From assembly GCA_964016885.1 (NCBI GenBank), contig OZ024740.1:154628001-154692000 (forward strand): a stretch of 64,000 nucleotides of DNA. The letters run 5' to 3'. Shown in pieces: positions 11,171-62,395 of this stretch. The notes under the pieces were generated by a model, which saw only the letters and a list, made by a program, of their open reading frames with translations, did no database searches and had not been told where the DNA came from. Both the position numbers and the translations under genes were made by a program. The DNA comes from Eledone cirrhosa (Eukaryota). Every line of letters starts with the position of its first letter. The stretch's first letter is position 1.

Positions 11171-11700
11171 ATATTGTTATACTTGGGGAGGGTCATATTG
11201 TTGTAATAATATTGCCAGAAATAATAACTGTTTCTACTTTAGGCACAAGGCCAGCAATTACCCAGTGCGTTACTGGTACTTTATTTCATCGACCCCGTAA
11301 GGATGAAAGGCAAAGTCAACCTCGGCGGGATTGCCAGAAATAATAACAGAACACACTCACTGTTTGGTTGGTTTTCACTTCTGCATCTTTTATATCTCCA
11401 TAGTTAATTTATTTGGCAATCAATGTTTATCATTGACTGTGCAACGAAAGAATTTTGTTAGACTATATATATATATTTATATCTGTATTTTTAACCGTTG
11501 GTCAGTCAATGATAAATATTGATTGCCAAATAAATTAACTATGGAGATATAAAAGATGCAGAAGCGAAAACCAACCAAACAGTGAGTGTGTTCAGTCATT
11601 ATTTCTGGCAATATTATTACAATAATATGACCCTCCCCAAGTATAACAATATTTGTATCGACACACGATTTCATATCAAAAACCTCGCAAAAATAAAAAA
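11171..11700. mobile_element. Fold-back element (ATATTGTTATACTT-GGGAGGGTCAT family) with a SINE inserted in its left arm
   Basis: Arms about 11171-11438 and 11503-11652 are inverted. A minus-strand SINE fragment at about 11229-11330 is flanked by the duplication TTGCCAGAAATAATAAC. Confidence 0.85.
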
Positions 11701-11727
11701 TTAATAATTATATATCTATATATATGG

Positions 11728-11997
11728 GCGATAAAATAAAGTACCAATCTAGTACTGATGTCAATAAAATAAATTACCAATCAAGTACCTATGTCGATAA
11801 AATAAAGTACCAATCTAGTACTGAGGTTGACAAAATAAAGTACCAATCTAATACTGAGGTTGACAAAATAAAGTACCAATCTAGTACTGAGGTCAATAAA
11901 ATAAAGTACCAATCTAGTACTGAGGTCAATAAAATAAAGTACCAATCTAGTACTGAGGTCAATAAAATAAAGTACCAATCTAGTACTGAGGTTGATT
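11728..11997 (+). repeat. 33-bp minisatellite, about 8 copies, derived from the SINE core
   Basis: Unit GTCAATAAAATAAAGTACCAATCTAGTACTGAG matches the SINE segment GTCGATAAAATAAAGTACCAGT. Confidence 0.85.
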
Positions 11998-12481
11998 TAA
12001 TTGAAATATTTAGAAATTATTATAATCCAACCAGAAATAGAAATCTACGAGAATTTGCGATTTCCCCCACCTGTAGGACGAAAATGATAGGAATATTAAA
12101 ATCACTGCACTCAGATCATATCGTTCTTGATATTTTTAATGCTTTTTATAACAATTTTATGGCGTTAGTAGAGGTTAAATGGGAAATTTTATTGGAATAT
12201 TAATTCGGCCAGGTTGTTAGAAGACGAAATAATAAATATATATTCTTGACTTGTGACTAGGAAATTATATTCTCTAGTATAAAATGCATTCGATACACGG
12301 TCGAAATTTTAAACTGTTTCATTGAACATAAATTTGATTAGTATTTTCATATCTAAAAATATAGAAAAATATATATACTAACATAGCACCTGTCGAAAAT
12401 AGGGGAGTGTATTATAAAAAAAATATGTGAAAACACTTGAAATGTCCGAATTTTCCTTGATTTTTGTAAACTTCAATCAGC

Positions 12482-12742
12482 CTTCTTCTCTTCCTCCTCC
12501 TCCTCCTCTTCTTCTTCTTCTTCTTCTTCTCCTTTTTCTTCTTCTTCTTCTTTTTCTTCTTCTTCTTCTTCTTCTTCTTCTTCTTCTTCTTCTTCTTCTT
12601 CTTCTTCTTTTTCGTCGTCGTCGTCACATCATCGTCGCTGTCGTCGTCTTCTTGGCAGCAACAGCACAGTAGTAGTAGTAGTATTAGTAGTAGTAGTAGT
12701 AGTAGTAGTAGTAGTAGTAGTATTAGTAGTAGTAGTAGTAGT
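12482..12742 (+). repeat. (TTC)n and (TAG)n microsatellites
   Basis: Directly visible trinucleotide runs. Confidence 0.95.
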
Positions 12743-59560: not shown

Positions 59561-60462
59561 GGTTCCACCATACTCAGTGGCAAGATTCTGAAAATGTCAG
59601 TGAATTCAAGAAGGCACCACCTTCACTGCCATAGTTCATGGTAAAGATGTGATATATGTCTGCATTAATTGTGTACGAGCTGCATTCTGTTGTTTTCAGA
59701 ACTGGCTATAGTCTACAACAGAGATGCGTCTGATCACAAAAATCTGCATCTATTGAGTGTTCGAGTGTTCATTTGCATCACCCTCCTTTTTGGTTGTAAG
59801 ATGTGATCAATGAGAAAGTTGGATTTATGCAAGCTGGAATTTTCTGATTATTATGCCTTTGCTGAATCCTCCATGTTCACACACTGGATTTTGTCCATAA
59901 CTCTGAAATTCATTGACACTACTCAGAAAGCAATTCTGTTAGTTTGGTCATACACTTTGCCACCCATGATGTAAACTCCTCTACCATGAAATTATGCCAG
60001 AGCCACTTCTGATTTTCAGCTAACATTTGGCCCTTACATATATGGTGTCCACTGCTATAATCATGGCTGGCTTCCAATATATTTGTTGGGTGTCTGTGAT
60101 CACCGTGCATGAGCAGTTTCTGTTCATGATGTTGGAAATGCATTGGTTGAAGAAGACTTAACCCATCCTTGGTGAACACTAATACACATACAAGTACAAG
60201 TGTAGATTTTAAATTAAAAATTAAATCTATTTTAATTTCAGTTTGGAATATTATATTTAGATGGATACCAACATTTTATTCAACCTGAAAAATCTGATAT
60301 CAAATACTGGACGCAGATTCCCCCAAAAAATCCAAAGAAAAACCACATTGTTCAGCACCATATTTATAAAACTGCTAGTTTACAAAATGATACTTGTATT
60401 TCGGAAAACCGTAAGTACTAAAGTCACTTTTCTGCATACTTTTATCCAACTTTTATTTTTTA

Positions 60463-61818
60463 TGGGGTACATTGTTTTAGAAACCTGTCATATGAGGTAC
60501 ATTGACTGATAAATTTGTCTTATGAGATACATTGACCGATAAATCTGTCTTATGGGGTACATTGACTGACAAACCTGTCTTGTGAGGTACAGTGTCTGAT
60601 AAACCTATTTTATGAGGTGCATTGACTGACCAACCTGGCTTTTGGGGTACATTGTTTTAGAAACCTGTCTTATGAGGTACATTGACTGATAAACCTGTCT
60701 TGTGAGGTACACTGTCTTACAAACTTGTTTTAAGATGTAGATTGTCTAACAAACTTATCTTATTGGATAAAACTGTCTTTTGGAGTACATTGACTGATAA
60801 ATCTGTCTTATGGGCTACATTGACTGATAAATCTGTCTTATGGGGTACATTGACTGATAAATCTGTCTTATGGGGTACATTGACTGATAAATCTGTCTTA
60901 TGGGGTACATTGACTGATAAAACTGTCTTATGGGTGCATTGACTGATAAAACTGTCTTATGGGTGCATTGACTGATAAATCTGTCTTTTGGGGTACATTG
61001 ACTGATAAATCTGTCTTATGGGGTGCATTGACTGATAAATCTGTCTTATGGGTGCATTGACTGATAAAACTGTCTTTTGGGGTACATTGACTGATAAATC
61101 TGTCTTATGGGGTGCATTGACTGATAAATCTGTCTTATGGGTGCATTGACTGATAAATCTGTCTTTTGGGGTACATTGACTGATAAATCTGTCTTATGGG
61201 TGCATTGACTGATAAAACTGTCTTTTGGGGTACATTGACTGATAAATCTGTCTTTTGGGTGCATTGACTGATAAAACTGTCTTTTGGGGTACATTGACTG
61301 ATAAAACTGTCTTATGGGTGCATTGACTGATAAAACTGTCTTATGGGGTACATTGACTGATAAAACTGTCTTTTGGGGTGCATTGACTGATAAATCTGTC
61401 TTATGGGGTACATTGACTGATAAAACTGTCTTTTGGGTGCATTGACTGATAAAACTGTCTTATGGGGTACATTGACTGATAAAACTGCCTTATGGGTGCA
61501 TTGACTGATAAAACTGTCTTATGGGGTACATTGACTGATAAATCTGTCTTTTGGGTGCATTGACTGATAAATCTGTCTTATGGGGTACATTGACTGATAA
61601 AACTGTCTTATGGGGTACATTGACTGATAAATCTGTCTTATGGGGTACATTGACTGATAAATCTGTCTTATGGGTGCATTGACTGATAAAACTGTCTTAT
61701 GGGGTACATTGACTGATAAATCTGTATATAGGGTACATTGACTGATATATCTGTCTTATGGGGTACATTGACTGATAAATCTGTCTTATGGGGTACATTG
61801 ACTGATAAATCTGTCTTA
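60463..61818 (+). repeat. 29/30-bp minisatellite, roughly 45 units
   Basis: Units GGGGTACATTGACTGATAAATCTGTCTTAT and GGGTGCATTGACTGATAAAACTGTCTTAT. Confidence 0.95.
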
Positions 61819-62264
61819 AAGTAATTTTTACCCAATTTCTCTTATATGCCGATCAAAGTGAGAATTGGGCTTAAATTTAATATATTTTAATACTTCTCTG
61901 TGTGGATTATTAGTTTATTAATTTATTAATATATCTTGTCCTTTCATTGAGATTCTTAAGTATTAGAGACAATTACTTTATAAAGTTGTAAATTATATAT
62001 ATATATATATATATATATATATATATATAAGGAACCAGTAAGACCCCGACAGCTGAGCTGTATGTGTGTGTGTGTGTTTATATGCATATGTAGAATAATC
62101 TGTGTATATATATGTATATGAAATAAACTGTATTAGAGACAGTTAACTTTGTAGTATTATATATTAATAATGACTGCTCCTTCGTTGTTTTGAGCTGATT
62201 TAGGCGGTTTTTGGCTGCTATTTCTAGCATCGATATAAGTTCATAGTATTGTCCTGATACACTG

Positions 62265-62395
62265 AGTGTGATGAAAGAGCTTTGACAATATAAAAACAAC
62301 CATCCGGTTATCGAACCAAACAGCCAACCAAAAATTTATAATACAGGTGCATGTGTTTTTATTGGCAGCATGACCCTCTCAAAGTATAACAATAT
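62265..62395 (+). mobile_element. Single arm of the fold-back/hammerhead family
   Basis: GTGTGATGAAAGAGCTTTGACAAT..GCATGACCCTCTCAAAGTATAACAATAT followed by (TA)n. Confidence 0.7.

What the first reader, a model, noticed from the sequence alone, without database searches (positions are those of the whole stretch)
11171..62395. Dispersed non-coding fold-back family with hammerhead-like arms next to (TA)n tracts
At least five related pieces (11171-11700, 17820-17915, 37975-38652, 50195-50462, 62265-62395) share the terminus CATGACCCTCCCAAAGTATAACAATAT and lie beside simple repeats, mostly (TA)n. Two are long inverted duplications in which one arm extends further, and a third is a partial one. 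The 38-kb copy has CTGAAGA-stem-GAAA-N4-TT closed by GTCA/TGAC, and the 62-kb and 50-kb copies keep parts of it. Penelope pLTRs are known to carry minimal hammerheads and to form inverted repeats. Inference: a retrozyme-like, Penelope-mobilised hairpin element family without coding capacity that targets (TA)n.
Basis: partly seen in the sequence, partly recalled or inferred. Interest (0 to 1): 0.75.

Follow-up and report, generated by a model that had tools for sequence, protein, structure and literature searches.

The report
Stumps of telomerase-like Penelope retroelements
The five repeats are cut-short ends of a very abundant, protein-coding Penelope-type jumping gene, likely pasted back-to-back into TA repeats by two priming events at one break; its copying enzyme carries a telomerase-sized extra segment that likely marks an undescribed branch of these elements.

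Summary
The repeats are real, but they are not a non-coding retrozyme family. They are 5'-truncated 3' ends (pLTR stumps) of about four subfamilies of an autonomous Penelope-like element (PLE). Intact ~1,230-aa RT + GIY-YIG ORFs exist elsewhere in the genome. The shared 'terminus' is that ORF's ATG and first nine codons. The longer arm is the known PLE tail (codons 10-29). A minimal hammerhead with covarying stems lies in the pLTR; only the 38-kb right arm keeps a complete core. The terminus has 38,934 exact copies genome-wide. Ends fall at +26 (14,046) or +86 (12,293), both on ATAT running into (TA)n. In a position-picked sample, 22 of 22 inverted pairs had exactly one tail, which fits twin priming at one break. 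The scan has reported this architecture before on other DNA of this genome. New here: the RT has a ~70-aa insertion between motifs 3 and 4 (spacing 131; 62 in a Neptune-type element of the same genome; 118 in human TERT). It is conserved across a large, mostly unnamed protein clade with a C-terminal endonuclease, a combination I did not find in print.

The parts
11171..11439 (-). Subfamily B inverted arm, tail-less (+26 end at 11171, ATG at 11196), interrupted by a SINE fragment
11229..11329 (-). SINE-like repeat fragment in the left arm, flanked by an 18-bp direct repeat (11211-11228 / 11330-11347); likely a later insertion, not part of the family
   Evidence: SINE label recalled, not from a call
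11440..11692 (+). Subfamily B direct arm: starts in hammerhead stem II (3' half TGCAAC-GAAA-GAAT-TT at 11440-11455), ATG at 11627, tail reading MTLPKYNNICIDTRFHIKNLAK
17806..17917 (+). Single short arm with full tail (+86 end, ATG at 17832, 29 codons) followed by (TA)n; no hammerhead left
37971..38229 (-). Subfamily A inverted arm with the 60-nt tail (+86 end at 37971, ATG at 38056); hammerhead copy with U4 changed to A; truncated just 5' of stem I
38229..38261 (+). Last 10 codons and stop of the PLE ORF (EWNSNITAYN*)
   Evidence: intact L064 ends EWNSNITTYN*
38262..38652 (+). Subfamily A direct arm: 3'UTR/pLTR ending at +26 of the ORF (ATG at 38627), tail-less, followed by (TA)n
38460..38502 (+). 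Minimal type I hammerhead: stem I GTCA/TGAC, core CTGAAGA, unpaired G, stem II GTCACA/TGTGAC, GAAA, AAAC (family majority GAAC), TT
50185..50351 (-). Subfamily D inverted arm, ATG at 50256, decayed tail
50352..50462 (+). Subfamily D direct arm with degenerate hammerhead (TTGAGGA core as in its subfamily; GAAA changed to CAAA); ATG end missing
62266..62395 (+). Older single arm (subfamily C/A-like): starts in stem II, keeps GAAA-GAGC-TT-TGAC, ATG at 62370, +26 end, followed by (TA)n

Best explanation
The five pieces are 5'-truncated ends of an autonomous, hammerhead-bearing Penelope-like retroelement, and the fold-backs likely arise when the element's endonuclease opens a (TA)n tract and both DNA ends prime reverse transcription from two fixed sites in the element's RNA. 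Shown: the pieces match the ends of intact 1,227-aa RT + GIY-YIG elements; copies end at +26 or +86 of the ORF (about +71 and +83 in subfamily B); both main ends read ATAT into (TA)n; inverted pairs carry exactly one tail; the two arms of a pair share private variants. Inferred: a dimeric RT-EN bound near the ORF start nicks both strands; each 3' TA end pairs with one AUAU in the RNA, 60 nt apart; both cDNAs stop early at random points and are joined at their 5' ends, often by short microhomology. The hammerhead is a passenger of the pLTR in these stumps. It likely matters only in transcripts of tandem source copies, and in a read-through RNA of the fold-back it is predicted to be buried in double strand. 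The parent's RT carries a ~70-aa insertion at the position of telomerase's insertion-in-fingers; its role is unknown, and it may help grip the short RNA-DNA primer duplex (inference).
For: Coding origin: (frames of 1,238-1,257 aa in L061, L063, L064); GIY-YIG Pfam hit above cut-off for L002; ORF C-terminal hits in 25 of 29 A, 10 of 29 B, 3 of 19 C and 5 of 19 D loci; A vs B differences in codons 1-22 are 8 of 10 at third positions, p=0.003. Ends: of 196 arm ends (14 of 210 rows dropped as duplicate loci), 86 short, 95 long, 7 read-through, 8 other; (TA)4+ follows 73 of 86 short and 68 of 95 long ends, against 2.8% of random window positions. Genome-wide: 14,046 short ends, 12,293 tailed ends, 476 read-through. 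One tail per pair: 21 of 25 abutting pairs (4 with a read-through arm dropped; p=0.0014) and 22 of 22 position-picked pairs (1 dropped; 11 left-tailed, 11 right-tailed; p about 5e-6). Arm divergence 0.024 within 11 pairs against 0.045 in 220 between-pair comparisons. Same anatomy in print: PMC3846280 (pLTR holds the first codons, tail extends them), PMC8557442 Fig. 2, PMC11167929 (two internal RT start sites bound the tail; both strands cut and extended).
Against: No biochemical test. Arm similarity could also come from later gene conversion. In PMC11167929 the RT start site was not homologous to the cut DNA, whereas here both ends coincide with ATAT; the exact junction cannot be placed within that shared sequence. 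4 of 25 pairs in the first sample were not mixed, two of them cross-subfamily pairs. About half of the termini have no exact-match partner (46 of the first 100 hits fall in pairs; hand count). For C and D no intact ORF was recovered, only fragments. Codon bias is not significant for A vs C (p=0.32).
Confidence: 0.9

Rival explanations
1. A non-autonomous, non-coding retrozyme family that expresses small self-cleaving circular RNAs and borrows PLE enzymes.
For: Minimal hammerhead with covariation. Most copies hold little coding sequence (476 read-through against 26,339 stump ends). Retrozymes are proposed to derive from PLE pLTRs (bioRxiv 10.64898/2026.07.22.740005, part 1 and passages read).
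Against: Terminus and tail are ORF codons. 5' ends are spread continuously, with none of 89 subfamily-A arms ending at the predicted cleavage site, about -127 to -137. No short same-strand tandem among the first 100 listed hammerheads. 4 of 5 window pieces lack a complete core.
Confidence: 0.05
2. The stumps are PLE ends, but each fold-back is made from a single cDNA by snap-back or template switching, with the tail left by endonuclease resolution of the element's own DNA rather than by two priming events.
For: PMC8557442 section 6 ascribes the tail to EN-mediated resolution. Arms share private variants, and junctions abut within a few bases.
Against: Either arm can be the longer or the tailed one (11 vs 11). 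Cross-subfamily pairs occur (L085, L092). PMC11167929 maps the tail between two RT start sites in vitro.
Confidence: 0.2
3. A DNA-transposon MITE with terminal inverted repeats and TA target duplication.
For: Inverted termini and TA flanks resemble Tc1/mariner MITEs at first sight (established knowledge).
Against: The two ends differ by 60 nt in every position-picked pair. Distance between termini runs from 80 to 3,846 bp, and the interior is two truncated arms of an RT element (89-100% covered). Single arms are common.
Confidence: 0.01

Closest known systems
Canonical C-terminal-endonuclease PLEs and their inverted pLTR + tail structures (Penelope/Poseidon, Neptune, Nematis; PMC8557442, PMC3846280, PMC11167929)
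   Same: Single ORF RT then GIY-YIG with CCHH-type residues; pLTR containing the first codons; optional tail at one end; 5'-truncated inverted arm; partial tandems (L063, L064); hammerhead in the pLTR; Asn-rich stretch in the ORF as in Adineta Penelope.
   Different: Tail is 60 nt rather than 30-40; both ends coincide with ATAT shared with the target; RT3-RT4 spacing 131 aa rather than about 60-63.
Nematis clade
   Same: Short linker C-x4-CxxC-x7-C before the GIY-YIG core, like Nematis in Fig. S2 of PMC8557442.
   Different: Nematis (C. remanei) has spacing about 63 by hand count from Fig. S1, no insertion; DK motif reads DKS here; no tree was built.
Neptune clade (an intact 775-aa member in this genome, L197)
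   Same: Profile match over 646 columns, probability 99.4, 20% identity; Zn-finger linker.
   Different: Spacing 62 and a long linker (22 aa after CxxC) in L197.
Hydra clade (Hydra-1_Obim)
   Same: C-terminal EN, (TA)n targeting, hammerheads often with U at the cleavage site (supplement parts 2, 59).
   Different: Hydra lacks CCHH and IFD, has CxCX5C and DKT, and is under 3 kb; this family has CCHH-type residues, CX4CxxC, DKS and is about 4.1 kb.
Naiad/Chlamys PLEs and telomerase RT (IFD-bearing)
   Same: Insertion between RT3 and RT4; the predicted fold's best PDB matches are TERTs (Z 15.3, rmsd 4.0, 376 aligned).
   Different: Naiad/Chlamys have an N-terminal EN and mostly no hammerhead; Naiad spacing about 87. 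Homology of this insertion to the TERT IFD is not shown.
Minimal PLE hammerheads (PMC4209133) and metazoan non-LTR retrozymes (PMC7229834)
   Same: Stem I 4 bp, stem II 6 bp, unpaired base after A9, G10.1-C11.1, vestigial stem III.
   Different: Loop III is GAAC/GAGC, not a perfect palindrome; subfamily D has U3 with G8; no 150-450-bp tandem units as in retrozymes.

Membership tests
Endonuclease-bearing PLE | One ORF with telomerase-like RT and GIY-YIG endonuclease | tested here: met
Endonuclease-bearing PLE | pLTR with ORF start, optional tail, inverted 5'-truncated arm, partial tandems | tested here: met
Endonuclease-bearing PLE | Hammerhead in the pLTR | tested here: met
   (93% of cells paired, 20 double-change cells, 0 of 500 shuffles; only 4 pairs change on both sides, 160 of 500 shuffles reach that; relatedness inflates the first measures)
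Endonuclease-bearing PLE | RT phylogeny inside PLEs | not tested
   no named reference sequences available to the tools; profile match to a Neptune-type ORF only
Neptune | Long CX2-5CxxC linker and no IFD | tested here: not met
   7 aa after CxxC vs 22 in L197; spacing 131 vs 62
Nematis | Reduced CX2-5CxxC linker | tested here: met
Nematis | No IFD (canonical RT3-RT4 spacing) | tested here: not met
   129-151 aa in 68 of 69 sequences vs about 63 by hand count
Hydra | CxCX5C linker, no CCHH, DKT, no IFD | tested here: not met
Penelope/Poseidon | No Zn-finger linker before EN | tested here: not met
   linker present
Naiad/Chlamys | N-terminal endonuclease | tested here: not met
   EN is C-terminal
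Non-LTR retrozyme | Non-coding 150-450-bp units in head-to-tail tandem, each with a hammerhead | tested here: not met
   coding ends; no same-strand pair within 1 kb among the first 100 of 19,365 hammerheads; rest of genome not examined
Non-LTR retrozyme | Self-cleavage and circular RNA | not testable with these tools
   needs bench assay and RNA reads
MITE | Fixed length, equal TIRs, fixed TSD | tested here: not met

The most novel reading that the evidence does not exclude
The parent element defines an undescribed, deep and very diverse PLE clade of marine invertebrates, the first with a C-terminal GIY-YIG endonuclease and a telomerase-length insertion-in-fingers. It inserts by homology-assisted twin priming: a dimer anneals the two nicked TA ends to two AUAU sites 60 nt apart in its own ORF start, much as telomerase anneals its primer. 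Intact copies make both points testable in vitro.
Probability: 0.45. Interest if true: 0.72.

Novelty: new variant of a known kind. Interest (0 to 1): 0.48.

Why it matters
The repeats themselves are ordinary PLE debris of a known architecture. Two things go further. First, how PLEs make their inverted ends and one-sided tail is an open question; tens of thousands of young copies give a near 1:1 ratio of two ends and a strict one-tail-per-pair rule, which constrains the mechanism and gives exact start sites for an in vitro test. Second, the published scheme (PMC8557442) holds that C-terminal-EN PLEs lack the insertion-in-fingers. A large clade with a TERT-sized insertion would add a branch to the retroelements closest to telomerase and bear on where that telomerase domain came from.

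Tried and rejected
Rfam scan: no hammerhead among 81 matches; minimal motifs are likely below its models. RNA evidence: no RNA holder listed; laying three contig sets of unknown kind on the 38-kb copy said nothing on expression or cleavage. Pile-up of 5' ends at the hammerhead cleavage site: not seen. Dimer folding of the motif did not give the active dimer as minimum-energy structure; uninformative, as the core is non-canonical. A conserved structure at the two start sites: z -1.75, not convincing. My first guesses were dropped: Neptune for this family (linker and spacing differ), and Naiad for the 13.8-17.4-kb element (its motifs fit Hydra). Pfam found nothing on the whole ORF and only weak RVT_1/GIY-YIG hits in the alignment. 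PDB sequence search gave only I-TevI at E 0.27. The Atlas gave no result. Motifs of this clade were absent from the text of the PMC8557442 supplement, which holds only that paper's new families and selected references. Flanks upstream of the 17-kb and 62-kb arms matched none of 196 loci, so a foreign partner arm there is not shown. Lunse et al. 2017 is not held and Arkhipova 2006 was not seen.
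Full report
Observation. The five pieces are present and share the terminus. The genome is 3.0 Gb and is likely an octopus: the closest named protein is from Octopus vulgaris at 68% identity. The 26-nt terminus occurs 38,934 times exactly, control 0. The hammerhead pattern alone is weak in the window (16 of 100 shuffles match), and Rfam lists none.

What the pieces are. 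Thirty loci fetched with the 38-kb right arm run upstream into GIY-YIG and RT coding sequence. A protein search gave 34,279 candidates, 102 scored. Twelve longer stretches include uninterrupted frames of 1,238-1,257 aa. The ORF begins MTLPKYNNIGFNTRFQIKNLAKQIQKRNI: the shared terminus is its ATG and first nine codons, and the longer arm's extension is codons 10-29. The 38-kb right arm starts with the ORF's last ten codons and stop. Searches with the 11-, 62- and 50-kb pieces gave subfamilies B, C and D. Their loci hold C-terminal ORF matches in 10 of 29, 3 of 19 and 5 of 19 cases, against 25 of 29 for A (a hit anywhere in the locus was counted). B fragments are mostly 48-72% identical to A in protein. 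Differences between A and B in codons 1-22 fall 8 of 10 at third positions; A vs C is not significant.

Hammerhead. 97 of 210 arms had a core within 330 nt upstream of the ATG. Stem II reads GUCACA/UGUGAC in A, C and D and GUUGCA/UGCAAC in B. On 32 hand-picked sequences (30 distinct), 93% of cells pair and 20 change on both sides, 0 of 500 shuffles; by pairs the signal is modest (4 pairs, 160 of 500), and relatedness inflates these measures. The anatomy matches the minimal PLE hammerheads of PMC4209133 (parts 1-2 of 4 read). A degenerate exact pattern finds 19,365 copies, control 0. In the window only the 38-kb right arm has a full core, and it has lost the G-C pair of stem III. A read-through RNA of the 38-kb copy folds into a ~200-bp double strand that buries the motif.

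Ends and pairs. Of 196 arm ends (14 duplicate rows dropped), 76 stop exactly at +26 and 42 at +86; subfamily B tails stop near +71 or +83. (TA)n follows 73 of 86 short and 68 of 95 long ends, against 2.8% of random positions. Genome-wide there are 14,046 short ends, 12,293 tailed ends and 476 read-throughs for subfamily-A patterns. Both main ends read ATAT. In abutting inverted pairs, 21 of 25 had one tail. In an independent set picked by position from the first 100 hits, 22 of 22 did, 11 on each side; the interior was 89-100% element sequence. Arms of a pair are closer to each other than to other pairs (0.024 vs 0.045; two within-pair values include non-arm sequence). 5' ends are spread from -10 to -3,815 with no pile-up at the cleavage site.

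Mechanism. PMC11167929 (parts 1-2 of 4 read) shows for a lizard Poseidon element that both strands are cut and extended, that RT starts at two sites inside the ORF which bound the tail, that a dimer is predicted, and that hammerhead mutants do not impair insertion in vitro. PMC3846280 (parts 1-2 of 5) and PMC8557442 (sections 6, 11, 12, 17, passages, supplement parts 1, 2, 54, 57, 59) describe the pLTR holding the first codons, the inverted arm and the one-sided tail. My reading is twin priming at one break in (TA)n, each end using one AUAU, with early termination and joining of the 5' ends. The anatomy is shown; the priming steps are inferred. The ATAT coincidence differs from the non-homologous start reported for the lizard element.

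The parent protein. Order: Asn-rich N-terminal part, PPKFA, DKS, RT, C-x4-CxxC-x7-C linker, GIY-YIG with CCHH-type residues. The distance from the RT3 Asp to the RT4 Gly is 131 aa. It is 129-151 in 68 of 69 aligned sequences, 127-151 in 127 of 154 proteins with both motifs, and 120-156 in 69 of 71 more distant representatives (71 of 144 had both motifs; 2 values are pattern misses). A Neptune-type element in the same genome has 62. Hand counts from Fig. S1 of PMC8557442 give about 61 for Penelope, 63 for Nematis, 87 for a Naiad and 118 for human TERT. The insertion has conserved Pro and Trp. The AlphaFold model (pLDDT 86) matches TERTs best and I-TevI for the EN, as any PLE would; homology of the insertion to the TERT IFD is not shown. 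Relatives are mostly unnamed metagenome proteins, plus octopus and a sea cucumber. PMC8557442 states that canonical C-terminal-EN PLEs have no IFD, with IFD-like regions only sporadically in EN-less Coprina. Searches for 'Penelope-like + IFD + GIY-YIG', 'Penelope-like + insertion in fingers + telomerase', 'Nematis + Penelope' and 'Penelope + Naiad + clade + retrotransposon' since 2022 found no description of such a clade. Repbase, Dfam, Arkhipova 2006 and subscription papers could not be seen, bioRxiv supplements are closed, and no tree was built.

Rivals. Retrozymes are tandem non-coding units (PMC7229834, passages; bioRxiv 10.64898/2026.07.22.740005, part 1 and passages); not met here. A MITE is excluded by unequal ends and variable length. 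Snap-back from one cDNA remains possible for the inversion step. An octopus repeat annotation (PMC13282606, passages) counts Penelope families without mention of ribozymes.

Earlier notes. The scan has already filed Penelope stumps, one-sided tails and hammerheads in (TA)n elsewhere in this genome. No note on this sequence or on the insertion came up.

Verdict. A real, very abundant feature of a known kind, misread as non-coding. The interest lies in the strict one-tail rule and in a parent that fits no named PLE clade by motifs.

Noticed in passing
window 13760-17480: Long inverted repeat (94-99%) enclosing broken minus-strand RT-thumb and GIY-YIG frames (15679-16137, 15015-15494) with a CxCX5C motif: likely a Hydra-clade PLE with the same two-arm, one-tail architecture and a hammerhead-like motif in its arms.
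   Followed up: partly
window 10776-11161: Near-perfect 189-bp hairpin of another repeat family, abutting the 11-kb piece across a short (TA)n; found in 11 of 196 loci, in (TA)n, with and without a tail-like extension.
   Followed up: partly
window 37811-37955 and 62030-62062: A third small family between (TA)n tracts, in 21 of 196 loci, with GAAA/CTGA-containing stems; several families pile into the same TA tracts.
   Followed up: partly
L125, L131, L134, L137, L138; window 50415-50421: Subfamily D hammerheads read UUGAGGA (U3 with G8) in 5 of 5 arms; PMC4209133 reports U3-A8, not this. A young A subfamily reads UA instead of UU at the cleavage site.
   Followed up: no
L085, L092: Inverted pairs made of two different subfamilies, suggesting two RNAs at one break.
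   Followed up: no
L197: A very young Neptune-type PLE with many intact 775-aa frames is in the same genome.
   Followed up: partly
G000:C1:132947047-132947576: A 46-bp tandem array derived from the ORF start of this element (12 copies).
   Followed up: no
P0066: An annotated Octopus vulgaris F-box/LRR protein isoform includes a stretch 77% identical to this ORF over 20% of the query: exonisation or annotation artefact.
   Followed up: no
window 19941-37373: Four to five decayed, same-direction copies of an L1/Tx1-like LINE (label recalled).
   Followed up: no
window 8439-8522: tRNA match, 54.6 bits, among SINE-like repeats.
   Followed up: no
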